DNA of 64,000 bases, taken from Alphaproteobacteria bacterium. Lineage in GTDB: Bacteria > Pseudomonadota > Alphaproteobacteria > JAJTHO01 > CANGYM01. This document shows, piece by piece, positions 3,916-64,000 of this stretch. The DNA lies in assembly GCA_044371315.1 (NCBI GenBank), contig JBILTX010000001.1, forward strand, positions 1,907 through 65,906. The letters are read 5' to 3'. A model generated the notes under the pieces. The model did no database searches and was not told where the DNA came from. It was given only the letters and a program-made list of their open reading frames with translations. Position numbers and translations under genes: made by a program. Each line of letters opens with the position of its first letter. Within the stretch, counting starts at the first letter, position 1.

Positions 3916-5895
3916 TTATCCCACCAGACGCAGCAACTGCTGGGGCATCTGGTTGGCCTGGGCAGCAACCCCAACCGCAGCCTGCAGCAAGGCCTGGTTT
4001 TTGTAGAAGTTGCTGGATTCCGCCGCAAAGTCCACATCAACAAACTGACCGTTGGCCGCGTTGCTGTTTTCAATAACGGTGGTTAGGTTGGTGTCGATTT
4101 GGCTGAACCGGCTTTGCAAGGCACCGATTTTGGCGGTGTTCTTGTTCAGCGTGTCGATGGCTTCATCAATCACCCCCTGCGCGGCTTGGGCACGGGCCGC
4201 CGTGTCAATGGCAATCAAATTGGCGCCATTGGCGTCGGTGATGCCCAATTCTTTGGTCGATACAGAATCCAACTCAACAGAGATAAGATCATTGAATGCA
4301 TCCAAACCAACCTGTGTGGTCACAGAGGTTTTTCCAGATTTTTCAACGTCAAAGCGGAATTGGTAGTTGTTGGATCCAAAGGTCACTTGTTGGAACGTTT
4401 CATCAGCGGCAAGGGTCGATGACGTTCTACGCAACTGATCGTTGGTAAAGGTCAATTCCACCCCGTTGCTGAAGGAAACCGTTGTCAAATTGGCATTATC
4501 ATCAATGTCAGACACATCCTTAACTACAGCGTCGTACGTCTGACCCTTTTGATCCTGAATGCGGAATGTGGTTGTGTCCGCATGGGAATCAAAGCTGGAG
4601 GTCAGGGTATACGTGCCGGCGGCTGTGCTGCTGGAGGCTTTCAGGATATTGTCATAACCACCCGCGGTTTGGGCCGTGGAGGTTGTGCCCAGTCCTAAGG
4701 ATGTCAGCGGAGTTCCTACACCGTTGGCAAGCGTAAAGGTCGATGCAGGATCCAGAGAGTATAAAACAAGATTCAATCCTCCGGTACCCGCAGAAGCATC
4801 ATCTCTTAGGGTTGCCGCTACCCCTGTTTGTTCTGAAATAGCATTGATTTTGTCCCGTATGGATCCAATGCCTTCATTGAGCGTAAGAGCTGCTGTAGTT
4901 GCAGATCCAGTGCTTCCCGTAATCGTAATTGTAGCCAGTGCCGCAGCAGCCGAAGGGGTAGCTTCTGTTGCAAAGTCCAAGGTACTGACAACACTGGATA
5001 CAACCGTAGTATCCGATCGGAATGCATTGGCTGTTTCTGTGATGTTGGCAGCGCGGAAGACAACTTCACTGCCCCCTGTGCCCACACCCAGAATTTGTTT
5101 CAGGTCGCTTTCCATGGTGTCTTCAGTTCCTGCTGTGACAACCAAGGCACCGTCAGCGTTAGATATTGTAAACCCATTGTTGTCGTTGGTGGTGCTTTTA
5201 AACTGAATGGTGCTGCCTATTGCTGCGTTTTGCTTCACTTCACCGCGAAAGGTTTCCATTTGGGCACCATTTTTGATATCCATTTCGATGATGTAATTGG
5301 TGTTGGCATCGTTGCGTGTTACGCGTACGTCATCAATGGTCCCCTCAACAGCACCGGTGTAGTTACTAAGGGCAATGTTAGTATTATTAAAGTAAGTTCC
5401 ATCTAAAGTTTGTAAGGAACTGTTTACAATACCAGCAGTGGTCACGTTGGTGCCCGCTTTAAATGTGGCATTGGCACCGCCTGCCAGTAATTTAATGCCG
5501 TTCATTTGGGTTTGGTTCACGGTGTTGTCGATCTGCTTGATCAATTCGCCGAATTCTTCTTGGGAAATCAGACGCTCAGCATCGGACAGGGTTCCGTTCA
5601 CGGCCTGTGTGGACAGGGTTTTCAAACGGGTTAACAATTCACTGACCCGTGTCACACCCCCACCGGCAATCTGCAGCAAGGATGATGTTTGTCCGGCGTT
5701 CACTTTGGCCTGGGTTAATGTGGCAATGTTGGATTTCAATTTGTTAGAAATAGCGAGTGAAGCCGCATCATCCGAAGGGCGCACAATACGCGAACCCGAT
5801 GACAGCTTTCCAACACTGGCAGCGGCATTGCGCGAGTGGATGTTGATATTGGCATTAGCGGCTTCAGCAGAGCTGTTGGTTAAGATACTAGGCAT
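3916..5895 (-). CDS. flagellin (659 aa) with a large central hypervariable domain
   Basis: N-terminal flagellin D0/D1 region (LSSGSRIVRPSDDAASLAISNKLKSNIATLTQA, NAGQTSSLLQIAGG). C-terminal D0 region (NSNAANGQFVDVDFAAESSNFYKNQALLQAAVGVAAQANQMPQQLLRLVG). The middle region is rich in T, S, G and N. Confidence 0.9.
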   Translation of the reverse strand: MPSILTNSSAEAANANINIHSRNAAASVGKLSSGSRIVRPSDDAASLAISNKLKSNIATLTQAKVNAGQTSSLLQIAGGGVTRVSELLTRLKTLSTQAVNGTLSDAERLISQEEFGELIKQIDNTVNQTQMNGIKLLAGGANATFKAGTNVTTAGIVNSSLQTLDGTYFNNTNIALSNYTGAVEGTIDDVRVTRNDANTNYIIEMDIKNGAQMETFRGEVKQNAAIGSTIQFKSTTNDNNGFTISNADGALVVTAGTEDTMESDLKQILGVGTGGSEVVFRAANITETANAFRSDTTVVSSVVSTLDFATEATPSAAAALATITITGSTGSATTAALTLNEGIGSIRDKINAISEQTGVAATLRDDASAGTGGLNLVLYSLDPASTFTLANGVGTPLTSLGLGTTSTAQTAGGYDNILKASSSTAAGTYTLTSSFDSHADTTTFRIQDQKGQTYDAVVKDVSDIDDNANLTTVSFSNGVELTFTNDQLRRTSSTLAADETFQQVTFGSNNYQFRFDVEKSGKTSVTTQVGLDAFNDLISVELDSVSTKELGITDANGANLIAIDTAARAQAAQGVIDEAIDTLNKNTAKIGALQSRFSQIDTNLTTVIENSNAANGQFVDVDFAAESSNFYKNQALLQAAVGVAAQANQMPQQLLRLVG

Positions 5896-10647: not shown

Positions 10648-11328
10648 TTATTTAGGAGGAGAACCCTTTTCCGGTTCGCTGGTGGGGGCGTCGTCTTCAG
10701 GGATGGGGATAAACACGGGATCCCCCGCTACCAAAGAATAACGAAAAGATACATGCTTTCGTTTTTTTAGGGTTATCAGTCGCGCCAGATACAATACCCC
10801 CCCCAAAAAAGCAAAAACCCAGATGGTTCCGAGAATCCACAAACTATGCAGACCGAAATAAATCAACAGCATACCAGCGGCGATTACTAGGCACAGGGTT
10901 TGCTTGATGCTTTTTTTGAGTTCTTTTTCCGTATATTGACTGGCGTATTCAATATCATAGCGTTTTTTACTGAGCGTCATGGGGGCAATACGCATTTGGG
11001 GACGCAGGGCTTGGAAACGTTTGTTTTCATCCATTTTCAGTTTCAATCGCCACCCTGCAATCATCAAAATCAGAATCGGCAACGTGACGATGTCAATCAC
11101 AATCAGCAGCAGGCAGGATATCAGGATTCCTACAATCAGGGCGATGTAGGTGGGATGCATGAAGGGTGCTTCCCATTGATCTTTAATACTTTTTGTGGCC
11201 ACATAACCAATGCCGCCGCGTTTATGGGCAAAGGGATGAATCAGAAACTCCCCCTGTCTCGTGGGGCGCACGCAAACGCGGTAGTGATGGCGCCGCATGC
11301 GAGAGGTCATCCAAAAAGGATAGATCAT
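10648..11328 (-). CDS. hypothetical membrane protein, paralog A of a tandem pair
   Basis: N-terminal cytoplasmic motif R-x-R-P-x3-GEFL-x-HPFAHKRGGIGYV followed by TM helices. Shares this architecture with the upstream paralog. Confidence 0.6.
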   Translation of the reverse strand: MIYPFWMTSRMRRHHYRVCVRPTRQGEFLIHPFAHKRGGIGYVATKSIKDQWEAPFMHPTYIALIVGILISCLLLIVIDIVTLPILILMIAGWRLKLKMDENKRFQALRPQMRIAPMTLSKKRYDIEYASQYTEKELKKSIKQTLCLVIAAGMLLIYFGLHSLWILGTIWVFAFLGGVLYLARLITLKKRKHVSFRYSLVAGDPVFIPIPEDDAPTSEPEKGSPPK

Positions 11329-11969
11329 GGCTTTTCTCCCTCAAGGGGGGGCAACAATCCTTCTGTTCGTCCCAAAGACAGCTTTGCAGCTTTCCAGCGC
11401 GACGTTAGCAGCATGTATGCGCGGTACCCGTAATACGCTGTCATCAGGGCCGCAAGAACCAATACCAAAAGCTGTTGGCGCAGACTATCCCCCGAGAGGC
11501 CATAAATCATAGTTCCGATAAAAAGGATCAGCAGAAAAATAGAAAAAAGAGACAAAACAAAAATATAAAAACGGGAAACCTGCAGCGATCGCTCCATCCA
11601 ATACCGTTTGAATGTCAATCGGTGGGGCAGGGGGGTTAAGTGTGACAAAAAGGCATCAAAGCGTCGTTTCTGCCAGTCATAATTCAAAACGCCCAGCCAG
11701 ATCCCCAATCCCAACCCCAACAAGGATCCGATCAGATCATAATCAAAAAGCCAGGCAATGAGCAGGCCCAACAACAGCGTGGGTACAAACACAAAAGCAA
11801 AGGGATCCCAATCAGCGGTTTTGGCCTGTTCCAAATCCTTGGCATTGACGGCATACCCCACGCCGCCGCGATGATGGTCAAAGGGGAAATAAAGAAAATC
11901 CCCCCCCTCGCTGGGGCAGGGACGCAGGCGGATTTCTGTACGTTTTCTTATTTGGCGATTGAAAAACAT
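11325..11969 (-). CDS. hypothetical membrane protein, paralog B of a tandem pair
   Basis: N-terminal LRPCPSEGGDFLYFPFDHHRGGVGYAV followed by TM helices. Overlaps paralog A by 4 bp. Confidence 0.6.
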   Translation of the reverse strand: MFFNRQIRKRTEIRLRPCPSEGGDFLYFPFDHHRGGVGYAVNAKDLEQAKTADWDPFAFVFVPTLLLGLLIAWLFDYDLIGSLLGLGLGIWLGVLNYDWQKRRFDAFLSHLTPLPHRLTFKRYWMERSLQVSRFYIFVLSLFSIFLLILFIGTMIYGLSGDSLRQQLLVLVLAALMTAYYGYRAYMLLTSRWKAAKLSLGRTEGLLPPLEGEKP

Positions 11970-12047: not shown

Positions 12048-13859
12048 ATGGCCTCTTTCCTATCCGCCCCCCTGTCGCACAGGCTTTCGCCCGTGATTTT
12101 GCCGTTGTTGTTTGTTTTGGGGATGAAGATTCTGCCCATCATGACCCAGCCGCAAAACTGGACAGAAACGATGACGGATCCCGATGCAATTTTGCGTTTG
12201 GTGGTGGTGGATAATCTGATTCAAACGGGGGACTGGGGGGATCATCGGATTCATCGGACCAACCCCCCCACGGGAACCGTGACCCCGTGGACACGGCCCA
12301 TGGATGGTGTGGTGTTGACAGGGTATGCGTCCATGCGGTTATTTTTGGATGAAAAACAGGCCCTCATCGGATCGGCCATGATCATGCCGCCGCTGTTGTT
12401 TGTTTTGGGGCTTGTCTTTGTGTGGCGATGGATGGCGTCACAGGGGATGCCGATTTATGCCCAGCTCTTTGTTTTGATGGCTATGGCTCTTAATCCGTGG
12501 TTCAGAGCGTTTGATCCTGGTGCCGTTGATCATCATGGCTTGCTTTTGGTGTGTGCTTGGATGCAGTTTCTTTTGACCTATAGCGTGATTCAGGGTAGGG
12601 GGCATCACGCCCCCTACTTGGCCATGGTTACAGGATTGGGAATATGGGTTTCCCCTGAATTTTTTATCGTGTCATTTTTATCGTTTGCGGGGTTGGCCTT
12701 TTGCTGGTTAAGGTGCCCTAGGGAGTATCACGCGCCTTTTTTAAACGTTCTGTGGATCACAACCTTGATTCTGGCGGTGGCTGTTGGGATAGAGCAGCCT
12801 GTGTTTTGGGTGCCTTTTTATGACACGGTTTCTGTGGTTTACGTGGCGTTGTTGGCCATGATGACGGCGGGCTTTTGGGCCCTGAAAGCAACAGAGCGTC
12901 ATGATCTGTGGGACCGTTTGTTTTTTGCGGTGGGTGTATTGATTTTAATTTTGGGGGTTATGCGGTGCCTTTATCCGGAATTTTATAAACTCACCATGGG
13001 GGGGCTAGATCCCTATATCATAAAGTCTTTTTTGCCCAGCGTGTCGGAACAACAGGCGTTGGTGGATGGCTTTAAAGATATTTTTCCCCCCCAACCGTGG
13101 ATAGGGATTGTGGTTTCTCATCTTTTGTTTTTTTTGGGATACGGGTTTTTCTTTCATCGGCTGAGGGTGACGAGGGGGGAGTTTTTTCAGGGACATTCTC
13201 CGGACCTCTTCGTGTTTGTTTATGCGGTGGTGACCTTAGGGTTGGGGGTGGCAGTGGTGCGCCTTTATCCTTATTCCCTTTTGCCTGGGGTGTTTTTATT
13301 TTTGCCTGTTTTGGATGCGTTGGTTAAAACGCCCAAACTCTCCGCTTTATCCGACAGTTTAAGAGCGTGCTGTGTGATCATTATAGCGGCTGTGCCCATG
13401 TTGAGTTTGGCGTTTTTGATGAGTTTGGCGGAACTTTGGCCGTCATCGCAAAAAGATGGTGTGGATAATGCCTGTGATGACGATACGCGGGTTTTTATCC
13501 AAAACGCCCTGATGCCCGCCCTGCCCCAAGCCCATTTGATTTTCACCCACAACAACGATATGCCCGCGTTGCTGTTTTGGACCCCCTACACGGCCTTGGC
13601 GGGGAATTATCACAGAGAGCCTGCCGCCCTGAAAGATTTGGCAACGTTTTTTTCCGCCAAGACAGAGAGCGAAGCCCAAGCTTTGATCCAAAAACATCGT
13701 CCCGATGCGGTGATTGTGTGTTTAAAACGGGCAGAGCCCCGTGGCCGCTGGATTTATGATGTGGCCACTGGAAAAATCAACCCACCCGACGGCCTGAAAC
13801 GTATTTCCACAGACGAAAAGCTGTATCCTAACATTCGGCTGTATCAGGTCAGCCCTTAA
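12048..13859 (+). CDS. large polytopic membrane protein (603 aa) with a C-terminal soluble domain; possible GT-C-like glycosyltransferase
   Basis: More than 10 hydrophobic helices and a first loop with DPDAILRLVVVDNLIQTGDWGDHRIHR. The soluble C-terminal part is about 150 aa. Family assignment is uncertain. Confidence 0.6.
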   Translation: MASFLSAPLSHRLSPVILPLLFVLGMKILPIMTQPQNWTETMTDPDAILRLVVVDNLIQTGDWGDHRIHRTNPPTGTVTPWTRPMDGVVLTGYASMRLFLDEKQALIGSAMIMPPLLFVLGLVFVWRWMASQGMPIYAQLFVLMAMALNPWFRAFDPGAVDHHGLLLVCAWMQFLLTYSVIQGRGHHAPYLAMVTGLGIWVSPEFFIVSFLSFAGLAFCWLRCPREYHAPFLNVLWITTLILAVAVGIEQPVFWVPFYDTVSVVYVALLAMMTAGFWALKATERHDLWDRLFFAVGVLILILGVMRCLYPEFYKLTMGGLDPYIIKSFLPSVSEQQALVDGFKDIFPPQPWIGIVVSHLLFFLGYGFFFHRLRVTRGEFFQGHSPDLFVFVYAVVTLGLGVAVVRLYPYSLLPGVFLFLPVLDALVKTPKLSALSDSLRACCVIIIAAVPMLSLAFLMSLAELWPSSQKDGVDNACDDDTRVFIQNALMPALPQAHLIFTHNNDMPALLFWTPYTALAGNYHREPAALKDLATFFSAKTESEAQALIQKHRPDAVIVCLKRAEPRGRWIYDVATGKINPPDGLKRISTDEKLYPNIRLYQVSP

Positions 13860-13890
13860 ATAATTATTTGGTGCAATAATTATTTGGTGC
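13857..13890. repeat. tandem 16-bp direct repeat AATAATTATTTGGTGC x2 that includes the tRNA-Leu 3' end
   Basis: Seen directly in the sequence. The repeat unit is GCACCA plus the palindromic AATAATTATT in the tRNA orientation. Confidence 0.6.
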
Positions 13891-13970
13891 CCCAGGAGGG
13901 ACTTGAACCCCCACACCCTTGCGAGTAGCAGATTTTGAGTCTGCCGCGTCTACCATTCCACCACTGGGGC
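13885..13970 (-). tRNA. tRNA-Leu (anticodon CAA)
   Basis: Reverse complement folds as a type II tRNA. Acceptor GCCCCAG/CTGGGGC, anticodon loop CTCAAAA, long variable arm, T-loop GGTTCAAGTCC, encoded CCA. Confidence 0.9.
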
Positions 13971-14079
13971 ATTATCAACGGTGTGCTTTATACCAAGGTT
14001 TTGGGGGGTGGTCAAATTTTCCTTAAAAAAAATTTTGTGGCGATGGGCGGGGGGATTTGTTAAGGTCAGCGACCTTTGT

Positions 14080-14163
14080 GCGGTCGTGGCGGAATGGTAG
14101 ACGCGCAGCGTTGAGGTCGCTGTGGGGAGACCCGTGGAAGTTCGACTCTTCTCGACCGCACCA
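14080..14163 (+). tRNA. tRNA-Leu (anticodon GAG)
   Basis: Acceptor GCGGTCG/CGACCGC, anticodon loop TTGAGGT, long variable arm, T-loop GGTTCGACTCT, encoded CCA. Confidence 0.9.
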
Positions 14164-56735: not shown

Positions 56736-56758
56736 CCCCCGCGGTTTAAGGGCGGGGG
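56736..56758. terminator. GC hairpin between convergent lptD and the T4SS-like operon (possible bidirectional terminator)
   Basis: CCCCCGC-ggtttaagg-GCGGGGG. The loop contains the stop codon of the minus-strand gene. No clear U-tract on either side. Confidence 0.3.
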
Positions 56759-58296
56759 GATTGTGGAGTCCCCTCTTTGGGGCATGCGGATTCCAGCTCT
56801 TTTTGTTTTTCCCCAATGCGTGTGCTGATGGCACAGGTGATGTTCAGGATTCTGGGATTCCATTGATAATCGGGGTTTTGGGTGTAATAGGTCAAAAATT
56901 GCTGGGCCTTGGCGGCGTAGGCTTTGGCAAAGTTAATTTCCCCTGTCAGCACCCGTAGGGTTTCTCTGGGTTCGTTGGCAGCCAAGGGCAGATAAGCCGC
57001 CGCTTTTTTTTGCAGGTTGGCCTTCCTCTGGGCCAAAGACAGGGGTTTAGGGGACAGACCATCCAGACCCGACTGGTCCACGGTCATGAAAAATATGCTC
57101 ATATCCTCACGCTCGGCCTCAGCCTTGGCCACAGAGGGGGGGACCATGCGGTCATAATCGGCTTTCATGGTTTTCAGGTTTTTGGTGGATTCCTCAACCG
57201 ATCGACGCTGGTTTTGCAAAGCCGACATGAAAATAGTATTGTTTTTTAGGGACGGATCCTTGGCCAAAGCCTCTTCTGCGCGTTCCAGAGACTGTTGCTG
57301 GCGGCGAAGCGCAAAATCCTGACGTTGCATGGTTTCCTCAAACGCCATCCAGTTGAGGGTTGTGGGGTCATACAGTTGGCTGTGCTGTTTTAGGACGTTT
57401 TTCGCCAAGGCCGCGCGGTTTTCCCGCAGCAACCATGCGGGATTCTGGATGCCCGTCTGGCAGGCCAACAGTTGAAACAGGCCGCTGTTGTCAACGGGCA
57501 GGGGACGGTTCATCAAGGCTTTCACCCCGCGGGAAAATTGTTCCGAAAACACAGACCCCGTATCCGGCGTTTTGTTGGGAAAACAGGCGGGAACCTGACT
57601 TTGCATGGCGCCCAGGGTCAATCCGGCATCACTCAGCTGGGTCAGGGTTTCTGTGACGCCAGAGGCCGTCATGTCCATCAACGCGGTCAGCGAGGCCCCC
57701 ATCTGGGCACGCATCAATCCGGCCTGTTCCGCATCACGCTGGCGCATCAGCAAATCATCAAACAGTTTGGGATCCACACCAATGCCGCCCCCCCCATCAA
57801 CAGGGGAGATTTTCAGCGGCCCCAGAACGCTGGGATTGTCCTGCAAAATCTTTTGCATGGCAGAGGCCGAGGAGAGGGGCTGGCTATCGTCTATCGATAA
57901 CGGAATGCCAAAAATTTCACGCGGGGGCATGGGGGTTTGCTGTTTGCAACCCCGAATTTGGCGGTCGTAACGGTTTAGGTCCTGAAAAAATTTTTCGTAC
58001 GCCTGATCGGGTTTCAGGAAATAGGGTTGCAGGGCCTGAAACACAACGGCGTGTTGTTCGTTCAGGGCGATGATGGCCTCTTCATGGCGGATGGCGGCCT
58101 CGAACGTGGCTTGAAAGGTTTGGGGCACGCTATTCCCGCGAATCAGGGTTTCTGTGCTTTGCCACTGGGTGGCGGCGCTGCTGAGCTGACGCGCCTGCGC
58201 TTGGCTTTGCAAACATAGCAGGGTGGGGGTGTCAGGGGGCGCGGCCCCCGCCGAAGTTGCCGTCAAAGTGAACAAAAACAGGGTTAAAAATCGCAT
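56746..58296 (-). CDS. secreted protein (516 aa), last gene of the VirB3/VirB4-like operon
   Basis: Signal peptide MRFLTLFLFTLTATSAGA. No TM helix, Gln/Leu/Ala-rich. No recognisable family. Confidence 0.6.
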   Translation of the reverse strand: MRFLTLFLFTLTATSAGAAPPDTPTLLCLQSQAQARQLSSAATQWQSTETLIRGNSVPQTFQATFEAAIRHEEAIIALNEQHAVVFQALQPYFLKPDQAYEKFFQDLNRYDRQIRGCKQQTPMPPREIFGIPLSIDDSQPLSSASAMQKILQDNPSVLGPLKISPVDGGGGIGVDPKLFDDLLMRQRDAEQAGLMRAQMGASLTALMDMTASGVTETLTQLSDAGLTLGAMQSQVPACFPNKTPDTGSVFSEQFSRGVKALMNRPLPVDNSGLFQLLACQTGIQNPAWLLRENRAALAKNVLKQHSQLYDPTTLNWMAFEETMQRQDFALRRQQQSLERAEEALAKDPSLKNNTIFMSALQNQRRSVEESTKNLKTMKADYDRMVPPSVAKAEAEREDMSIFFMTVDQSGLDGLSPKPLSLAQRKANLQKKAAAYLPLAANEPRETLRVLTGEINFAKAYAAKAQQFLTYYTQNPDYQWNPRILNITCAISTRIGEKQKELESACPKEGTPQSPRP

Positions 58297-58311
58297 GCCT
58301 TAGCGCATTGA

Positions 58312-59505
58312 TTATTTTTGACATTCTTGGGGGACGAAGTAGGTCGGATTATGGCAAACGCTGTTTAGGGATTCGCTCAACAGTTTCATGCTTTGCAGGT
58401 GGGCTTTGTATTGCTCCAGCAGGCTGCGATCGGCCTCCAGATTTTGGATTAGGGCCAGACTGCGGTTAATGCACCCAGAAATTGGCATTTCTATTTCTTT
58501 CAGGCGCAGGGAAAAGTTACCCAATCCCCCCAGATTGACCCCAAGACCTTCCGCTAGGTTGGCTAATCCTTTGATCGTATCCAAAAATTTCTGGGTTGTG
58601 TTTTTATTAAACACCGAATAATCCTCCACACAGGGTTCGTACAGGGTTTTGGGGATGTAATTAAAAAAGACTTCCCGCATGCGGGCATGCACGCGCAGCA
58701 GATCCGAATAGGCATTCATGCTATAGGCCGCGTGGGCCAACGTGGCACTTTTGCACGTATCGATAAAGCATTGTTTTTGTGCGGTAAACACCGTGTTATT
58801 GCGACAGTCTTTCTTCAAATCCATCATCTGTGCCAGATTGTTTTGGGCACAATTCATGATGTATTGGGTTTTTTGGGCGGGGGTGATTTGTTTTTGTTGG
58901 ATGGCCAGTTCCGCCAAACTTTCGCAGCGCAAACACCCGAAATCTGTGGGGGCGCCCCCTGTTTGGGTGGATGCCTCAATCAGGGCTTTGATTTTTTTAT
59001 CGGGCATGCCGATGGCGTTTTTGATACCGCTGAGCAAATAATACTGCTCGCCCCGTTGTTGCAACAGGTAATCCAGTTGGGCAGAGGTATCCTTAAACTC
59101 CTTCACCCGCAGGGTTTCATAAAACTGCCGACTGCCCGGCAGCATGGTCAGGTCCGTCACACAAAACCCCGTTCCGCACCAGAGGGCATTGCAGGGGATA
59201 TACATGTGACAGAGATTGGTCCCAGGGAAGGGGGGCGTTTGTTTACAGACGCACGGTCTGGTGGACGACAGAGGGTAACAAATCCCATCCACACACGGCT
59301 CCAACGGACTCACCGGCACAATGGGCGGCGGCGGGACAGAGGGCACATATGCGGGCGGCCCCTTTAACCCCAACAAACTGGTGGCCGCTCCAGCCGCTCC
59401 GGCGACCTTAGAGGCCCCCGATGCCACCGCCGTCGGATCAACGGCCCCCGCCCCCGCCGATATCCCCAGCATCAGCAAAAACAGGATCAGATGGCGCATG
59501 ATCAA
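58312..59505 (-). CDS. Cys-rich secreted protein (397 aa, 18 Cys) with an N-terminal Pro-rich linker
   Basis: Signal peptide, PPAYVPSVPPPPIVPVSPLEP linker, then clustered cysteines (CVDGICYPL, PCVCK, LCHMYIPCNALWCGTGFC). Confidence 0.6.
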   Translation of the reverse strand: MIMRHLILFLLMLGISAGAGAVDPTAVASGASKVAGAAGAATSLLGLKGPPAYVPSVPPPPIVPVSPLEPCVDGICYPLSSTRPCVCKQTPPFPGTNLCHMYIPCNALWCGTGFCVTDLTMLPGSRQFYETLRVKEFKDTSAQLDYLLQQRGEQYYLLSGIKNAIGMPDKKIKALIEASTQTGGAPTDFGCLRCESLAELAIQQKQITPAQKTQYIMNCAQNNLAQMMDLKKDCRNNTVFTAQKQCFIDTCKSATLAHAAYSMNAYSDLLRVHARMREVFFNYIPKTLYEPCVEDYSVFNKNTTQKFLDTIKGLANLAEGLGVNLGGLGNFSLRLKEIEMPISGCINRSLALIQNLEADRSLLEQYKAHLQSMKLLSESLNSVCHNPTYFVPQECQK

Positions 59506-61205
59506 TCAGTCGCTTGATAGACAGGGGCTCCACTTTCAATCAGATCCCCCAGACTGGCACAGGCATTTTGCAAAATCACCTGTTCGGTGTTGACGTTGGT
59601 CATGACCAGATTGTACATGGACAGTCCGATCAGGACGTTCATTTGGCTCATCACCGAACCTTCGGCCAAGGAAGAGGCCTGTAACAGGGCGATGGAGGGG
59701 CAGAGTTCTTTGCCGCTTTTTGTGTCATAAAATTGGACTTTTTCGCATCGTTTTGGGTTCCCAGTGCCGGTGAACAATTCCTGAAACATTTTGGCGGGAA
59801 TTTGTTGTTTGCTGATGGCCGCGGCGGCGCAGCGGGATTTGAGCTGGCCTAGAAACAGACGTTTATTCGCCTCTTCGATCTGTTTGCATTTGGTGGTGCT
59901 GTTGTTGGCCATTTTGGGGTTGCATCTCAGCATGCTGAGCAAAAACTTTGCAATATCTGCGGTGTTTAGCGTTTGGTTGGGTGGTAGATTGGTTGTCCCC
60001 GCCAACGGGGTGTCTTTGGATAACGGGCCGGTTCGGAAAGAGTCTTCTGTCGCTCCCGCGACATCACCGAGCTGCGCTAAGACATTAGGGAAATCTGTTC
60101 TTGTCCCCATGGCCTCAAGGACGGGGAGACCAAACAGTCCTGCAAAATCATAGAACATACTTTTCAATGATCCTGCTGGTCCGGTGACTTCATCAGACAA
60201 TGCAAATCCCCCTTTGAGCAAACCACTACCAATTAAAAATCCTTGGACGGATCGGATGTAGGTCGTTAGTTGGCCCGCATCGAAGCCTTGGCCGCCCCCG
60301 AATGTCCCCACCAATGTAAAAATAGCCCCCCCGATTTGACCAATTTGCCCTATGTTTTTGGTGATGTCTGGGGAGAGGGCAATCCCAAATTTCCCCAATA
60401 CATCGGGAAGGTTTGTGAGGAAATTGAGACCCGATTGTGCGCAATTCAGGCCTCCGCCCTGACAGTTCCCTTGCAGACCTTGGAGGGCATAGTACGTATC
60501 GCCCAAATTCTCGCTCAGGTCTCGTACTTGTCTGGTAAACTTGGCAATATTGCCGAGGGGGTCGGATGGTTTCGCGATCAATGAGTCTTTCAGCGTGTAT
60601 CCTAGGGTGGCATTGGTGGAGGCAGATGGATCAAAGGCCCCGCTAAAGTCACCGGCAGGAGCAGGTACGTCAACGAGGGCGGGGGCAGAGGGATCAAAGG
60701 GATTAGGAGGCGTAGCCGTTCCCTGAGTAGGGGCCGGCGTCCCCGCCGGCGTAGAGGTAGCCGGTGTCGCCGCCGGAGCAGGGGTGCCAGATGTCGCCGG
60801 CGTAGTAGCCGGAGCAGCAGCGGCATTCACCTTTGCTGCCGCCGCTGGGCCTTCTCTTATGGCGTTATATGCAATGGAATCGCTGGTATAGGCGGCGTAC
60901 AATGAACTGGAAAATTCAGCCAAAATTGTGTCAGTGGTGGGGATGTCTTTTGCTTCCGCTGGGGCTTGGTATTTAATAGCCCCCAGAATCTTAGTTAGGG
61001 TTTCGTTTGTTGTTTTTTGGGCATTGTTCAGCTCAAGAAGCTTAATATTGAGATTGGCCAATGCAATGACTTGGCTCGTCAAAAGTGTCTGCGCCTTTGT
61101 ATCAGACACCATCACCACGGGCAGGGCAGAGGCCCCGTAAACGGGCATCAGCACCATTTGCAGCACCATCACATAGCATAACGTCCGTCGAAAGAGGGAA
61201 AGCAT
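59502..61205 (-). CDS. secreted protein (567 aa) with a coiled-coil N-domain, Pro/Ala/Thr low-complexity linker, and Gly-rich/Cys-containing C-terminal part
   Basis: Signal peptide, a heptad-like segment (QVIALANLNIKLLELNNAQKTTNETLTKILGAIKYQ), the AAAAPATTPATSGTPAPAATPATSTPAGTPAP linker, and GQIGQIGGAIFTLVGTFGGGQGF. Confidence 0.6.
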   Translation of the reverse strand: MLSLFRRTLCYVMVLQMVLMPVYGASALPVVMVSDTKAQTLLTSQVIALANLNIKLLELNNAQKTTNETLTKILGAIKYQAPAEAKDIPTTDTILAEFSSSLYAAYTSDSIAYNAIREGPAAAAKVNAAAAPATTPATSGTPAPAATPATSTPAGTPAPTQGTATPPNPFDPSAPALVDVPAPAGDFSGAFDPSASTNATLGYTLKDSLIAKPSDPLGNIAKFTRQVRDLSENLGDTYYALQGLQGNCQGGGLNCAQSGLNFLTNLPDVLGKFGIALSPDITKNIGQIGQIGGAIFTLVGTFGGGQGFDAGQLTTYIRSVQGFLIGSGLLKGGFALSDEVTGPAGSLKSMFYDFAGLFGLPVLEAMGTRTDFPNVLAQLGDVAGATEDSFRTGPLSKDTPLAGTTNLPPNQTLNTADIAKFLLSMLRCNPKMANNSTTKCKQIEEANKRLFLGQLKSRCAAAAISKQQIPAKMFQELFTGTGNPKRCEKVQFYDTKSGKELCPSIALLQASSLAEGSVMSQMNVLIGLSMYNLVMTNVNTEQVILQNACASLGDLIESGAPVYQATD

Positions 61206-61254
61206 AGGTCACGCCCCAGAAACTTTTAAGAGTTTATTTAAAATTTATCATACC

Positions 61255-63705
61255 TTAAGAATCGCTGTCAAGGTAGATGTTCAGCCAGTCGGATTGATAA
61301 TTGTGCATTAACCGCTCAGCCAACGCGCGGGAGGGTTCATCGGAATAATAAATCCGCATCAATCGGCCCAGCGGGGACAGGTCCGTGTCCAGAATGATGG
61401 ATTCCCCGCTGGCGCGTTTCATCAACACAGAGCGTTTCAGTTTTTTGGCGGCGGGCAGTTTGCCGCTGATGTATAGCCATTCCCGCTCGGTTAATCCCCA
61501 GTCCTGATATTCCCGCGCTTGGCCTTGGGGGTTGGGAAAGAAAAATGTGGTTTGCGCTTGGCCACGGATGGCCTCGCCCAGGCCGGCTTGGGTGATGGCC
61601 TCGGGCCGCTGGAATGCCGAAATGACGGCGCCGCGGCGTTTTCGATATTCCTGCAACATCTGCAAAAAATAATTCCGGAAAATGGGGTGTTTCACCACGG
61701 GTTCCGTTTCGTCAATGAAAATCAGGGCAGGGGCCTTTAATTCGGAAATCGTATCCTGAATCCGGTGCATCAGATACAAAATCACGGCCCGCGCCAAATC
61801 ATCGTGTTCATACAACCGCGTAAAATCCAGCGCCACAATGCGGGATGTTTTTAAATCTAGGGTGTCCTGCTTGGCATTAAAAATCTTTCCATAAACGGCG
61901 GGGTCCACCCATTTATGAAGATTTTTTCGCACCATGCCGCCTTTGCTGTACACCGCATCATAAATGTTGGCCAGCGATCGGCGTTCGTGTGGCAGGCCCG
62001 GTGTGTCATATGCGGCCTCAATAGAAAACCCAATTTCCTCGATGGCATCGGCGTCTTGGCATTCTGAAATGGCCTGCAAAAAGGCCCTGAGAAACGATCG
62101 GTTCGATGGATTATCTTTCAGCTGAAACGGATTCATGGACGATTGAATCCCGGGGATGTTGGATCCCTCAAAGGTCACATAACTGCCCGAGGTCGCGCAG
62201 GTAAACAGGTATCCCCCCCCGTGCCGATCCACCATATAATAGCGCAGATCTTCATGCCGCATGGCCATGCCCGCCAGAAAGTTGATCAGCGTGGTTTTTC
62301 CCCCTCCGGTGGGGCCAATGCTGACGGCGTGGGCGACGGCGGCTTTTTCCTCAGAAATATGAAACTGAAAGGCATAGGGTGTGCCAGAAATGGTCCGAAA
62401 GTTGGCGATGGCCCCCTTGCCCCAATCCGAGGAGCTCAGGCCCGGAGATGGCCGCTCAAACGTCAAATGTGTGGCAATGTTTTTGGAAAACAGTTTATAG
62501 GGGCGCGGCCATAATTTAAAACTGGGGAATTGCAAAAACCAGCTGGCTTGGGCGACGGCGCCCTCTCGCACCACAGAAATGCCGTAAGTGCTGGCGATGC
62601 GCTTGACTTCGGCTTCGGTGGCTTCCATTTCGTCTACGGTTTTGCCATAGCAAAACACCATCATCATGTATTGTGACAACACGTTGGTGCCGCCGGTGTT
62701 GCCCTCCACCGCATCCAGCGCGGTTTCAAACTGGGCGGCGGTGCCGGGACTGAACCGTTGGGCCAGTGACAGTTTGTATTGGTGGGTGATATGGATGGCG
62801 GCCTTGGTTTTGGTCCAAGGTTCAATGATGTGGGAAACAATAATTTCCCCGTGAACGGTGTTTAGCGAATTGACATAGGCTTCGTACGTAAAATCCCCCA
62901 ACGCCCGCAGACCCACGCAGCAGGCATAGAGTTTTTTATGGCCGGATGTAAAGGTAATGCCCCCATCATCCCCCCCAAATTCCACCTGATCGCCGCAAAT
63001 GGCATCCGATGCCCCATCCCCCACGCCCCCAGGCACGGGTTGAGAAATCGGGCTGACAATCCGCGAAAATACATAAAGGGGACGCATTTTCACATCGGGA
63101 TGGCCCTGCTTCATGACCACGGGCCCATATTTATGCAAAATGTTGCTGGTGATATCGATAACGGAATTGAGTTTTTTTTGGGATGTTTGATCTTTATCGG
63201 GCAAAGAAAAAACAACAAACTGGCGGTTGCTATAGGCGCGGGCAAAGGTGCCGTTCCAACGTCTGGCAATTTCCCGCAAAACAGGGTTGGCGTGGGTGGT
63301 GGGGGGGGCGACGTCCACCCGCTCGCGGATGGTAAAGGCCCGAATGGTGACATGATAATCCTGCAGGGCATCGATCCAATCCTTTCGCGCCAGCAGCAGC
63401 ATTTCCCGATCATGGTCACTCATGAACGTATCATCAAAACCCATCATTTCCACACATTGCGCCAAATCCCCATTTTTACAGGCGATGGTTTTCCCGTCGC
63501 TGAGCACCTTTTCAAAAGGCAAAACATCCGCCAGACGATCTTCTTTGGGATAGGGCAGCAAAATGCGGGCCGTGGTGGGAATCAAAATGGCCGCAAAGGC
63601 CACCCCTGCGGCAATAACCCCCAGCAGGGTCAAAAGAATGGAAGTCAGGCTGAAGTTTTCGGAAAACGCCGCCAACACATCGGGGGATAACGACTCAGGG
63701 AACAT
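61255..63705 (-). CDS. VirB4/TrbE/TraC-family type IV secretion ATPase (816 aa)
   Basis: Walker A GPTGGGKTT, Walker B ALIFIDE, and the C-terminal VirB4 blocks ISAFQRPEAI and QTTFFFPNPQ. Hydrophobic N-terminal segment. Confidence 0.9.
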   Translation of the reverse strand: MFPESLSPDVLAAFSENFSLTSILLTLLGVIAAGVAFAAILIPTTARILLPYPKEDRLADVLPFEKVLSDGKTIACKNGDLAQCVEMMGFDDTFMSDHDREMLLLARKDWIDALQDYHVTIRAFTIRERVDVAPPTTHANPVLREIARRWNGTFARAYSNRQFVVFSLPDKDQTSQKKLNSVIDITSNILHKYGPVVMKQGHPDVKMRPLYVFSRIVSPISQPVPGGVGDGASDAICGDQVEFGGDDGGITFTSGHKKLYACCVGLRALGDFTYEAYVNSLNTVHGEIIVSHIIEPWTKTKAAIHITHQYKLSLAQRFSPGTAAQFETALDAVEGNTGGTNVLSQYMMMVFCYGKTVDEMEATEAEVKRIASTYGISVVREGAVAQASWFLQFPSFKLWPRPYKLFSKNIATHLTFERPSPGLSSSDWGKGAIANFRTISGTPYAFQFHISEEKAAVAHAVSIGPTGGGKTTLINFLAGMAMRHEDLRYYMVDRHGGGYLFTCATSGSYVTFEGSNIPGIQSSMNPFQLKDNPSNRSFLRAFLQAISECQDADAIEEIGFSIEAAYDTPGLPHERRSLANIYDAVYSKGGMVRKNLHKWVDPAVYGKIFNAKQDTLDLKTSRIVALDFTRLYEHDDLARAVILYLMHRIQDTISELKAPALIFIDETEPVVKHPIFRNYFLQMLQEYRKRRGAVISAFQRPEAITQAGLGEAIRGQAQTTFFFPNPQGQAREYQDWGLTEREWLYISGKLPAAKKLKRSVLMKRASGESIILDTDLSPLGRLMRIYYSDEPSRALAERLMHNYQSDWLNIYLDSDS

Positions 63706-63991
63706 ATTTTCGGGTTCCGGGCTTTCCCTTAATCAAATTGCGCGTGGATCGCTTGCTATAGGCCCATGCGGGGAGCAGGGTCGCCATATGGGGTTCCTTG
63801 GCCCCTTGCGCCGCCAAAACCATATGGAAAAAAATCAAAGAAATGATGATCAACAGGGGGCTGACCTTAAACAATCCCCATGCATACACAATACCCAAGG
63901 CATGAAAGCCCATATTGATAATGGCGGGCATCATCGGTGCCCAAAACAGTGTGGCCGGACTGGCAACAGCGCGCATGACTTTTTCTGGCAT
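63695..63991 (-). CDS. VirB3/TrbD-like small inner-membrane protein
   Basis: 98 aa with two hydrophobic helices and an RAVASPATLFWAP N-terminus. It overlaps the VirB4-like gene by 11 bp, the typical virB3-virB4 coupling. The start is close to the window edge. Confidence 0.55.
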   Translation of the reverse strand: MPEKVMRAVASPATLFWAPMMPAIINMGFHALGIVYAWGLFKVSPLLIIISLIFFHMVLAAQGAKEPHMATLLPAWAYSKRSTRNLIKGKPGTRKYVP

Positions 63992-64000
63992 GGGGCCCCT

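What the first reader, a model, noticed from the sequence alone, without database searches (positions are those of the whole stretch)
56746..63991. VirB3/VirB4-like type IV secretion core followed by three large secreted proteins of unknown family
On the minus strand, a VirB3-like and a bona fide VirB4-family ATPase are followed in one tightly spaced or overlapping operon by three large secreted proteins (567, 397 and 516 aa). Each has a signal peptide and no transmembrane segment. Canonical T4SS loci follow VirB4 with VirB5 (~220 aa), polytopic VirB6, and VirB8-11. F-type loci follow TraC with TraW/U/TrbC/N of different sizes. None of these expectations fits. The operon ends at a convergent lptD, so the usual downstream channel genes are not in the window. 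This looks like either a highly divergent conjugation or effector-translocation apparatus, or a VirB4-powered module with novel extracellular components. The remaining core genes may lie upstream beyond position 64000.
Basis: partly seen in the sequence, partly recalled or inferred. Interest (0 to 1): 0.85.

Follow-up and report, generated by a model that had tools for sequence, protein, structure and literature searches.

The report
Split chromosomal T4SS with hypervariable secreted trio
The flagged genes are one half of a type IV secretion machine that is split across the chromosome of an uncultured freshwater alphaproteobacterium; the three unknown secreted proteins occupy the slot normally held by the pilus-tip protein VirB5, and one of them varies drastically between otherwise near-identical genomes, as a surface recognition or adhesion molecule would.

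Summary
On the minus strand lie VirB3-like, VirB4 and three exported, Cys-conserved proteins without internal TM segments: X (567 aa), Y (395-397 aa) and Z (516 aa). The operon ends 20 bp from convergent lptD.

X, Y and Z match no Pfam, NCBIfam or PDB family. An exhaustive HMMER scan of 1.84 billion representatives found only X's own family. AlphaFold failed on X and Y (pLDDT 31 and 40).

Related genomes place four VirB2 pilin genes upstream, then leuD/leuB. A contig with this lineage's tetranucleotide signature carries VirB7-like, VirB8, VirB9, a lipoprotein, VirB10 and VirB11 between housekeeping genes. The system is therefore a split, resident P-type T4SS resembling rvh and ComB.

In a graded VirB4 clade (66-39% identity), the same slot holds one to three secreted proteins. 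In distant members these are weak VirB5 homologues (TrwJ E=0.007). Y and Z link only to their nearest positional counterparts, and X links to nothing.

VirB3/VirB4 have dN/dS of 0.02-0.07, against 0.19-0.56 for X/Y/Z. X is a recombining mosaic, 45% identical where VirB4 is 99%.

My best reading is diversifying VirB5-slot pilus or surface proteins, a new variant of a known kind. Function is inferred.

The parts
63695..63991 (-). VirB3-like small inner-membrane protein (98 aa); its 3' end overlaps the VirB4 start by 11 nt
   Evidence: Pfam VirB3 E=3e-4, 21.5 bits, just under the 23.9 cutoff. One long hydrophobic stretch, residues 31-65. 90-99% identical in six related genomes. dN/dS 0.02-0.07. 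34-49% identical to the gene in the same position in L007 and L009.
61255..63705 (-). VirB4-family ATPase (816 aa) with an N-terminal hydrophobic hairpin (residues 17-51), Walker A GPTGGGKT and Walker B LIFIDE
   Evidence: Pfam PF03135 at 31.4 bits (cutoff 21); TIGR00929 E=1e-100. TrwK of R388 E=1.8e-31. 94-99% identical across related genomes, dN/dS 0.03-0.06.
59502..61205 (-). X: exported 567-aa protein in the first post-VirB4 slot; an orphan family; hypervariable mosaic
   Evidence: No family or PDB match. Only 46 homologues, all unnamed. The exhaustive profile search found 9 representatives, all of its own family. Only 36-60% identical in genomes whose VirB4 is 94-99% identical. dN/dS 0.35-0.56. 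Eight invariant Cys. AlphaFold pLDDT 31.
60876..61205 (-). X residues 1-110: signal peptide plus the conserved N-terminal helical segment (motif LPVVMVSDT...)
   Evidence: Conservation in alignment A1. hhalign against N-termini of clade 'a' proteins gives P=0.0035 in the correct register, which is suggestive only.
60024..60875 (-). X residues 111-394: hypervariable cassette region, including a Thr/Pro/Ala-rich linker encoded by an imperfect 27-nt repeat (60726-60817)
   Evidence: No nucleotide similarity to the closest genome (L006) across window 60871-60033, while the flanks are 95.6% and 91% identical. Identity differs sharply by segment and segments are uncorrelated across alleles. Repeat D1.
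59505..60023 (-). X residues 395-567: conserved Cys-containing C-terminal region ending in a near-invariant helix (SQMNVLIGLSMYNLVMTNVNTEQVILQNACASLGD)
   Evidence: Alignment A1 invariant columns.
58312..59505 (-). Y: exported Cys-rich protein (18 Cys) in the second post-VirB4 slot; the likely true start is the ATG at 59499 (395 aa)
   Evidence: No family or PDB match. 31 homologues, all unnamed. Most Cys invariant. The Y profile matches the positional counterpart L007_b461 (E=7e-5 in a 22-sequence set, 3e-4 in an 83-sequence set) and L013_3. dN/dS 0.31-0.36. AlphaFold pLDDT 40. Start codon.
56746..58296 (-). Z: exported 516-aa protein in the third post-VirB4 slot and last gene of the operon
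   Evidence: No family match. Six of six Cys invariant in six orthologues. 66-95% identical across genomes, dN/dS 0.19-0.29. The Z profile matches positional counterparts L013_4 (2e-6), L013_5 (8e-6) and L007_c471 (2e-4 to 9e-4).

Best explanation
The window holds the 3' part of island 1 of a resident, chromosomally split P-type type IV secretion system in an uncultured freshwater alphaproteobacterium. Island 1 reads VirB2 x4 (six pilin domains) - VirB3 - VirB4 - X - Y - Z. Island 2, elsewhere on the chromosome, reads VirB7-like lipoprotein - VirB8 - VirB9 - lipoprotein - VirB10 - VirB11.

X, Y and Z are exported by Sec, disulfide-bonded outside the cytoplasm, and occupy the gene slot held by VirB5 (the pilus-tip or stalk protein) in canonical systems and by VirB5-like paralogues in distant members of the same VirB4 clade.

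The proposed mechanism is that VirB4 drives assembly of a VirB2 pilus, and that X, Y and Z assemble on or at that pilus or on the outer face of the channel. In X, the conserved N- and C-terminal helices would serve assembly, while the hypervariable middle is displayed outward and contacts the surface of a target cell (host, prey or neighbour). Recombination between strains reshuffles X modules under frequency-dependent selection.

Shown: gene content and order, export signals, conserved Cys, strong constraint on VirB3/VirB4, relaxed or diversifying evolution of X/Y/Z, mosaicism of X, and a second island.

Inferred: descent from VirB5, location at the pilus or cell surface, an adhesion or recognition role, and that island 2 belongs to the same genome.
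For: Gene order and families:
- establish the genes and their order.
- The same order, VirB2(n)-VirB3-VirB4-[1-3 secreted Pfam-less proteins]-small lipoprotein-VirB8-VirB9, recurs in nine context loci spanning 66-40% VirB4 identity.
- It recurs again in many of 75 metagenome loci.

Link of the slot to VirB5:
- L008_a285 gives a full-length weak match to Pfam PF07996 (E=0.042).
- 4 of 14 short slot proteins hit PF07996, best E=0.007.
- A profile of these proteins places the two VirB5 chains TrwJ (E=0.0074) and TraC (E=0.94) among its 13 PDB matches.
- An iterated profile captures 43 of 83 slot proteins.

Link of the trio to the slot:
- Y and Z profiles match their positional counterparts in the nearest outgroup loci.
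- The X N-terminus aligns in register with the clade's 'PV.D' N-termini (P=0.0035).

Extracytoplasmic location:
- Signal-peptide-like N-termini, no internal TM segment, and invariant Cys.

Functional machine:
- VirB3/VirB4 dN/dS is 0.02-0.07.
- The island-2 contig L016 has tetranucleotide r=0.951 to the window. This lineage's own loci score 0.926-0.973 and the next best locus scores 0.81.
- L016 encodes VirB8, VirB9, VirB10 and VirB11 flanked by ligA and an ABC ATPase gene.

Surface-type evolution:
- X is 45% identical where VirB4 is 99% and LptD 98%.
- X dS is 0.88 against 0.12 for VirB4.
- Nucleotide similarity is lost exactly over X residues ~112-391.
- Modules reassort among alleles.
- VirB2a and VirB2b are also only 50-60% identical between genomes.

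Precedent:
- In Bartonella Trw, the amplified and diversified VirB2 (TrwL) and VirB5 (TrwJ) mediate host-specific adhesion without a coupling protein (PMC2883598).
Against: - Homology of X, Y or Z to VirB5 was tested and not demonstrated. There is no PF07996 hit. hhalign of X and Y profiles against the clade's VirB5-like profile gives probabilities of 0.5% and 1.6%. Five rounds of iterated profile never recruited X, Y, Z or the nearest outgroup trios in L007, L010 and L013.
- All three are two to three times the size of VirB5.
- Both AlphaFold runs failed, so no fold evidence exists.
- No VirB6, VirB1 or VirD4 was seen for this lineage.
- L016 is assigned to the lineage by composition and gene similarity only.
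- No expression or localisation data exist.
- dN/dS below 1 is also compatible with relaxed constraint rather than positive selection.
Confidence: 0.55

Rival explanations
1. X, Y and Z are cargo rather than machine parts. They would be Sec-exported periplasmic substrates (a toxin or effector complex) that the T4SS pushes across the outer membrane, as the Ptl system does with pertussis toxin subunits encoded next to it. On this reading X's hypervariability reflects an arms race with a target or an immunity partner.
For: All three have signal peptides and conserved disulfide Cys. They are co-operonic with VirB4. X shows extreme, modular polymorphism. No structural family could be assigned. The pertussis toxin/Ptl precedent is from my own knowledge and was not checked here.
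Against: The slot between VirB4 and VirB7/VirB8 is conserved across the whole clade and is filled by VirB5-like structural proteins in distant members. No enzymatic or toxin domain was detected. X's conserved N- and C-termini flanking a variable core is the pattern of an assembling subunit. No immunity-like small gene is adjacent.
Confidence: 0.15
2. X, Y and Z are soluble periplasmic replacements for missing channel or stalk parts (the roles of VirB6, VirB5 or VirB1), so they are internal scaffold rather than surface-exposed.
For: No VirB6 or VirB1 was found in either island. In Rickettsiales the genes after virB4 are VirB6 paralogues in a similarly split system (PMC2653234). Some clade 'b' proteins carry a lysozyme-like stretch (L009_1176, GH19 E=4e-5).
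Against: None has an internal TM segment, whereas VirB6 is polytopic. A 45%-identical, cassette-swapping protein is hard to reconcile with a buried scaffold that must fit a 99%-conserved VirB4. Sister loci have a recognisable TrbL/VirB6 elsewhere in the locus in addition to the slot proteins (L014, E=5e-7).
Confidence: 0.1
3. The system works as a ComB-like DNA-uptake or DNA-release machine, and the trio are accessory DNA- or cell-envelope-interacting factors.
For: The layout is two operons, VirB2-3-4 and VirB7-8-9-10, as I recall for Helicobacter comB2-4 and comB6-10 (own knowledge). The small lipoprotein carries the 'K[KR]SPC' motif that Gillespie et al. describe as shared by Rickettsia VirB7 and ComB7. 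The best NCBIfam hit of L016 VirB10 is ComB10 (E=5e-34). No relaxase or coupling protein was seen.
Against: VirB11 is present. To my knowledge, four pilin genes and a hypervariable exported protein are not features of ComB. The ComB10 versus VirB10 score difference is small (117.6 vs 105.4 bits) and both are below their cutoffs.
Confidence: 0.1
4. The locus is a decaying remnant of a mobile element's conjugation system, and X, Y and Z are unrelated hitch-hiking surface proteins.
For: The operon lacks channel genes and abuts lptD. One sister locus (L013) shows the slot broken into five ORFs.
Against: VirB3/VirB4 are under constraint as strong as LptD and Ndk (dN/dS 0.02-0.07). Synteny is conserved in seven genomes down to 83% LptD identity. 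All ORFs are intact. There is no GC anomaly and no integrase or relaxase in the flanks. The slot is conserved across the clade.
Confidence: 0.03

Closest known systems
Agrobacterium VirB/VirD4-type (P-type, MPF-T) type IV secretion systems, e.g. R388 Trw and pKM101 Tra
   Same: Recognisable VirB2 (Pfam TrbC), VirB3, VirB4 (best PDB match TrwK), VirB8, VirB9 (TIGR02781), VirB10 (TrbI) and VirB11 (TIGR02788). Exported proteins follow directly after VirB4, where VirB5 sits.
   Different: The genes are split over at least two chromosomal islands. There are four pilin genes, two of them double-domain fusions. No VirB1, VirB5, VirB6 or VirD4 is recognisable. The slot holds three proteins of about 400-570 aa instead of one of about 220 aa. 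All core components score below NCBIfam equivalog cutoffs.
Rickettsiales vir homologue (rvh) T4SS (Gillespie et al. 2009, PMC2653234)
   Same: Vertically inherited chromosomal T4SS scattered in islets. A virB3-virB4 islet is followed by several large lineage-specific proteins, and a separate islet holds virB7-virB8-virB9-virB10-virB11. No recognisable VirB5. The VirB7 has the ComB7-like K[KR]SPC motif.
   Different: The rvh post-VirB4 proteins are hydrophobic polytopic VirB6 paralogues, whereas X, Y and Z have no internal TM segment. The host here has flagellin and amino-acid biosynthesis genes, so it is not an obviously reduced obligate intracellular bacterium. A phylogenetic relationship to rvh was not tested.
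Bartonella Trw T4SS (Vayssier-Taussat et al. 2010, PMC2883598)
   Same: Multiple variant VirB2 pilin genes plus diversified VirB5-slot proteins, which evolve much faster than the rest of the machine. Recombination among variants. No coupling protein seen. Proposed role is variant pili for specific adhesion.
   Different: Trw copies are tandem duplicates of clearly recognisable TrwL/TrwJ/TrwI/TrwH within one colinear plasmid-derived locus. Here the three slot proteins are mutually unrelated by sequence and unrecognisable as VirB5, and the variation is between genomes rather than among copies within one genome.
Helicobacter pylori Cag surface components (CagL as a VirB5-like protein not detectable by sequence; recombining CagY) - recalled from my own knowledge, not checked here
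   Same: T4SS pilus or surface proteins whose relation to VirB5 is invisible to sequence profiles, and a surface component diversified by recombination.
   Different: Cag is a pathogenicity island with many extra components.
Bordetella Ptl / pertussis toxin - recalled from my own knowledge
   Same: Sec-exported, disulfide-bonded proteins encoded next to T4SS genes.
   Different: ptx genes lie upstream of a complete ptl operon and encode an AB5 toxin with recognisable domains. Here the proteins sit in the structural VirB5 slot and have no toxin domain.

Membership tests
VirB4/TrbE/CagE T4SS ATPase | Profile match to the family with Walker A and Walker B motifs | tested here: met
   PF03135 at 31.4 bits, above the cutoff of 21. 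TIGR00929 E=1e-100 over residues 176-813, but 338 bits is below the 643-bit cutoff. TrwK E=1.8e-31. GPTGGGKT and LIFIDE are present.
VirB3 | Roughly 100-aa membrane protein encoded immediately upstream of VirB4 that matches PF05101 | tested here: inconclusive
   PF05101 E=3e-4 at 21.5 bits, below the 23.9 cutoff. Size, hydrophobic stretch and 11-nt overlap with virB4 all fit. The orthologue in L014 also gives a weak VirB3 hit.
VirB5 / TrbJ / TraC (Pfam PF07996) - tested for X, Y and Z | Sequence or profile match to PF07996 or to solved VirB5 chains (TrwJ, TraC) | tested here: not met
   No PF07996 hit at E<=1. X and Y profiles find no VirB5 chain in the PDB. hhalign against the clade's VirB5-like profile gives probabilities of 0.5% and 1.6%. 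An iterated VirB5-like profile never recruits X, Y or Z.
VirB5 / TrbJ / TraC - tested for X, Y and Z | Exported protein encoded directly downstream of VirB4 | tested here: met
   Gene order and signal-peptide-like N-termini. In distant clade members the same slot holds weak VirB5 homologues.
VirB5 / TrbJ / TraC - tested for X, Y and Z | Size of about 220 aa with a three-helix-bundle fold and globular appendage | tested here: inconclusive
   Sizes are 567, 395 and 516 aa. The AlphaFold models are all-helical but have pLDDT 31 and 40, so the fold cannot be judged.
VirB6 / TrbL - tested for X, Y and Z | Polytopic inner-membrane protein with at least five TM segments that matches PF04610 | tested here: not met
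   No internal hydrophobic window above Kyte-Doolittle 1.6. No PF04610 hit.
F-type Tra proteins (TraW, TraU, TrbC, TraN, TraF, TraH) | Match to the corresponding Pfam or NCBIfam models | tested here: not met
   No such hits for X, Y or Z. VirB4 scores only 48 bits on the F-type TraC model, against 338 bits on TIGR00929.
Conjugative element (ICE or plasmid MPF module) | Relaxase, type IV coupling protein, integrase or replication genes, or compositional or synteny signs of mobility | tested here: not met
   Flanks are leuB/leuD/nuo and lptFGD/ndk/thrC. Synteny holds in seven genomes. GC is 0.53 against a window range of 0.43-0.58. Only about 30 kb around the two islands could be inspected, so absence from the whole genome is not shown.
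Rickettsiales rvh-type T4SS | Chromosomal scattering into islets, with virB3-virB4 separated from virB7/8-virB11 | tested here: met
   Island 1 is the window plus L001-L006. Island 2 is L016, assigned to the lineage by tetranucleotide r=0.951.
Rickettsiales rvh-type T4SS | Proliferated hydrophobic VirB6 paralogues after virB4; phylogenetic affinity of core genes to rvh | tested here: not met
   The post-VirB4 proteins are not hydrophobic.

The most novel reading that the evidence does not exclude
X, Y and Z are not degenerate VirB5 proteins but a new three-part extracellular recognition module. Y and Z would be conserved adaptors and X a cassette-swapping specificity subunit, riding on a VirB4-built pilus in free-living freshwater bacteria, for example for partner, prey or kin discrimination. 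The same clade also appears to swap VirB10/VirB11 for a secretin plus PilB- and PilC-like proteins, which would make it an evolutionarily plastic T4SS/type IV pilus hybrid lineage not covered by current T4SS classifications.
Probability: 0.2. Interest if true: 0.75.

Novelty: new variant of a known kind. Interest (0 to 1): 0.48.

Why it matters
If the reading is right, diversification of T4SS pilus-surface components extends beyond mammalian pathogens such as Bartonella, Anaplasma and Helicobacter to an abundant uncultured freshwater lineage.

It would provide a natural system for watching allele turnover of a recognition molecule, because the X cassettes could be followed through the 20-year Lake Mendota metagenome series.

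It also adds three protein families that current HMM libraries and AlphaFold cannot place, in the least understood slot of the T4SS operon.

Finally, it flags a VirB4 clade in which the outer half of the machine seems interchangeable between VirB10/VirB11 and secretin/PilB/PilC.

Tried and rejected
- AlphaFold2 with family alignments for X (35 sequences) and Y (23 sequences) gave pLDDT 31 and 40. No fold search was run because such models give meaningless matches.
- Profile searches of X and Y against PDB sequences found nothing relevant.
- An exhaustive HMMER search with the X profile over 1.84 billion representatives returned only X's own family.
- hhalign of X and Y against VirB5-like profiles was not significant. 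Domain-wise hhalign gave only P=0.0035 for the X N-terminus. A five-round iterated VirB5-like profile did not reach X, Y or Z.
- Exact-sequence look-ups of the source contig failed for VirB4 and for X (P0001). Upstream content was therefore read from related genomes.
- I looked for an in-genome diversity mechanism: silent cassettes, shufflon-type inverted repeats and other repeats. None was found. No reverse transcriptase or recombinase appeared among the window ORFs annotated, but not every ORF was scanned.
- I looked for VirB7, VirB8, VirB9, secretin and ATPase genes in the window and in the flanks of L001-L007. None was found.
- I tried to obtain the MAGs' taxonomy from the Lake Mendota paper's supplements. 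The names were not found.
- Promoter and terminator scans were not above chance. Rfam found only three tRNAs.
- Rejected: F-type or VirB6 identity for the trio, a conjugative-element origin, and a remnant or pseudogene status.

Full report
**1. Observation**

- VirB3-like, 63695-63991
- VirB4, 61255-63705
- X, 59502-61205 (567 aa)
- Y, 58312-59505 (397 aa from TTG; the family starts at the ATG two codons later)
- Z, 56746-58296 (516 aa)

The genes overlap or lie 15-49 nt apart. Z stops 20 nt from the stop codon of convergent lptD.

VirB4 passes Pfam's cutoff and scores E=1e-100 on TIGR00929. Its best solved relative is TrwK of R388. VirB3 falls just below Pfam's cutoff.

X, Y and Z each have one N-terminal hydrophobic segment ending in a small-residue cleavage-type site, and no other hydrophobic window. 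They are not paralogues of one another. They hit no Pfam or NCBIfam family.

The rest of the window is ordinary chromosome: IleRS, CoxA, DAHP synthase, ThrC, flagellin, rRNA methyltransferase and others. GC shows no anomaly.

**2. Source and what lies beyond the window**

A genome-collection scan found six loci with 94-99% identical VirB4. All are from unclassified Alphaproteobacteria MAGs from Lake Mendota, the Rimov reservoir and similar freshwater samples.

In L004 the genes upstream of VirB3 are four VirB2/TrbC pilin genes, two of which are double-domain fusions. Before those come leuD, leuB, terC and nuoH/G. The same pilin genes are present in the other loci, with five in L002.

The "remaining core genes" are therefore not beyond position 64000. 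No VirB7, VirB8, VirB9, VirB10, secretin or ATPase homologue exists in the window or in those flanks.

**3. The trio is sequence-orphan and evolves fast**

X has 46 homologues and Y has 31 in a 5.8-billion-protein collection. All are unnamed and all come from this lineage. An exhaustive HMMER profile search over 1.84 billion representatives found nine proteins, all of X's own family. PDB profile searches were empty. AlphaFold2 with the family alignments failed, with pLDDT 31 and 40 and helices only. No fold comparison was possible.

Across the related genomes:

| Protein | Amino-acid identity |
|---|---|
| VirB4 | 94-99% |
| LptD | 83-98% |
| Z | 66-95% |
| Y | 58-85% |
| X | 36-60% |

In the closest genome (L006), X is 45% identical while VirB4 is 99% and LptD 98%.

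Nei-Gojobori estimates:

| Genes | dN/dS |
|---|---|
| VirB3 / VirB4 | 0.02-0.07 |
| LptD | 0.05-0.07 |
| Z | 0.19-0.29 |
| Y | 0.31-0.36 |
| X | 0.35-0.56 |

X's dS against L006 is 0.88, compared with 0.12 for VirB4. The X alleles are therefore older than the genomes that carry them.

At nucleotide level, the window and L006 align at 95.6% up to position 60871. There is no alignment from 60871 to 60033, which corresponds to X residues ~112-391. From 60033 onward identity is 91%.

Within the X family, identity to the window's allele varies by segment. Some alleles share 80% in residues 216-394 but only about 20% in residues 111-215, and others show the reverse. Segment similarities are uncorrelated. 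This is a recombining mosaic.

No silent copies, shufflon-like repeats or other in-genome diversification device were found. The variation is between strains.

Conserved Cys (8 in X, most of 18 in Y, 6 of 6 in Z) argue for folding in an oxidising, extracytoplasmic compartment.

**4. The wider clade explains the slot**

The VirB4 search returned a graded series of relatives from 66% down to 39% identity, including a Telmatospirillum sp. and a Loktanella sp.. Nine of their contigs were read with precomputed Pfam annotation.

All share the same order:
1. One or more VirB2 genes
2. VirB3
3. VirB4
4. One to three exported proteins with no Pfam family (sizes 201-1176 aa)
5. A 54-79-aa lipoprotein
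6. VirB8
7. VirB9

The lipoprotein has the invariant motif PEPVGIG..ELK[RK]SPCAC. That is the '[KI]KSP'+Cys signature Gillespie et al. describe as shared by Rickettsia VirB7 and epsilonproteobacterial ComB7.

The short slot proteins of the distant members are weak but coherent VirB5 relatives:
- One gives a full-length PF07996 match (E=0.042).
- 4 of 14 hit PF07996 (best E=0.007).
- Their profile places the two VirB5 chains, TrwJ (E=0.0074) and TraC (E=0.94), among its 13 PDB matches.
- They share the N-terminal 'PV.D' start and a C-terminal 'DLRGD..ANSA' helix.
- The long second-slot proteins carry the same module after a Cys-rich N-terminus.
- An iterated profile unites 43 of 83 slot proteins.

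The subclade nearest the window (L007, L010, L013, and the window itself) is not recruited. Y links only to L007_b461 and L013_3. Z links to L013_4, L013_5 and L007_c471. X links to nothing beyond an in-register N-terminal hhalign match with P=0.0035.

Homology of X, Y and Z to VirB5 is therefore supported by position and by a chain of positional counterparts. It is not shown by statistics.

**5. The missing half**

A metagenome scan with the VirB7-like lipoprotein alignment returned 75 loci.

One of them, L016 (10.2 kb, GC 0.54), carries, in order:
- smr and ligA
- an ABC ATPase gene and a neighbouring membrane-protein gene on the other strand
- VirB7-like lipoprotein
- VirB8
- VirB9
- a 373-aa lipoprotein
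- VirB10 (TrbI; best NCBIfam hit ComB10)
- VirB11 (TIGR02788 E=1.5e-56), running off the contig end

No VirB4 lies upstream.

Its tetranucleotide profile correlates with the window at r=0.951. This lineage's own loci score 0.926-0.973, the window's own 10-kb chunks score 0.89-0.97, and the next best locus scores 0.81. Its VirB8 and VirB9 are closest to those of the same clade.

I take L016 as island 2 of the same lineage. The assignment rests on composition and similarity, not on physical linkage.

**6. Mechanism**

The system is a resident, vertically inherited, split P-type T4SS with the layout of rvh and ComB. In it, VirB4 and the channel are tightly conserved. The parts expected to be exposed diversify: the pilins VirB2a and VirB2b (50-60% identity between genomes) and the VirB5-slot proteins.

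The closest functional precedent is Bartonella Trw. There, amplified and diversified TrwL (VirB2) and TrwJ (VirB5) make variant pili for host-specific adhesion, and the coupling protein is absent.

I therefore rate X, Y and Z most likely to be pilus- or surface-associated recognition proteins (0.55). X's conserved termini would serve assembly and its mosaic core would serve contact.

The rivals are:
- Sec-dependent cargo, on the pertussis-toxin model (0.15)
- Soluble scaffold replacing VirB6/VirB1 (0.10)
- A ComB-like DNA-uptake machine (0.10)
- A decaying remnant (0.03)

**7. Novelty and score**

The machine is a known kind. The variant features are:
- the split layout outside Rickettsiales and Helicobacter
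- six pilin domains
- three large, mutually unrelated, family-less proteins in the VirB5 slot
- strain-level cassette exchange in one of them

T4SS specialists already know that VirB5-like proteins escape profiles and that surface parts diversify, so the surprise is moderate. I score interest at 0.48 and classify it as a new variant of a known kind.

The most novel reading not excluded is a genuinely new recognition module in a clade that also alternates VirB10/VirB11 with secretin/PilB/PilC. I give this a probability of about 0.2.

Noticed in passing
L010:16394-22436; L011:14960-22526; L014:15973-22445; L015:6434-12892; also L017, L022, L024, L025, L030: In sister loci of the same VirB4 clade, VirB7-like/VirB8/VirB9 are followed by a secretin, a 160-200-aa protein, a PilB/GspE-like ATPase (MshEN+T2SSE) and a GspF-like platform instead of VirB10/VirB11. 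Across all fetched loci the two endings are mutually exclusive. L011 and L014 also carry a prepilin peptidase and an SLT upstream. This could be a T4SS/type IVb-pilus chimera or two habitually adjacent operons.
   Followed up: partly
window 12048-13859 (+): A 603-aa polytopic membrane protein with no Pfam family. It weakly resembles STT3-type oligosaccharyltransferases (TIGR04154 E=4e-4). It is 23% identical over 535 aa (E=5e-26) to L011:6504-8321, which lies directly upstream of the pilin genes of a sister T4SS locus. X has a Thr/Pro/Ala-rich linker that could be a glycosylation target; this was not tested.
   Followed up: partly
L004:7653-9683 (and the equivalent regions of L001-L003, L005, L006): Four VirB2 pilin genes lie upstream of VirB3 (five in L002). 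The last two each contain two TrbC/VirB2 domains in tandem. The first two are only 50-60% identical between genomes, against 70-80% for the fusions.
   Followed up: partly
L004:16998-21305: In this related genome the lptF-lptG-lptD block is inverted relative to the window, so lptD is co-directional with Z rather than convergent. The breakpoint lies immediately after Z.
   Followed up: no
L013:11379-15251: In a relative with 65% identical VirB4, the slot between VirB4 and the VirB7-like gene is broken into five ORFs (184, 234, 264, 324 and 151 aa). Their pieces match N- and C-terminal parts of the a, b and c proteins. This could be pseudogenisation or assembly frameshifts.
   Followed up: partly
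L009:7527-11057: The 1176-aa second-slot protein of the Loktanella-type locus contains a GH19/lysozyme-like stretch (Pfam E=3.8e-5). This suggests a VirB1-like wall-degrading function fused to a VirB5-like module.
   Followed up: no
window 10648-11328 and 11325-11969 (-): Two adjacent, overlapping genes encode 226- and 214-aa membrane proteins with no family. They share an N-terminal 'H(K/H)RGG(I/V)GY' motif and are probably paralogues.
   Followed up: no
window 3916-5895 (-): An unusually long flagellin (659 aa) with Flagellin_N and Flagellin_C ends and a middle of about 430 aa without a family. The organism is probably motile.
   Followed up: no
window 61242-61271 (-): A sigma-70-like site (TTGACA, 18-nt spacer, TG-TAAATT; 10 of 12 matches) spans the VirB4 stop codon just upstream of X. 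It might give X, Y and Z their own promoter, but such sites were not more frequent than in shuffled sequence.
   Followed up: no
window 13885-14163: Two tRNA-Leu genes (anticodons CAA and GAG) are arranged divergently, 110 nt apart, directly after the STT3-like gene.
   Followed up: no
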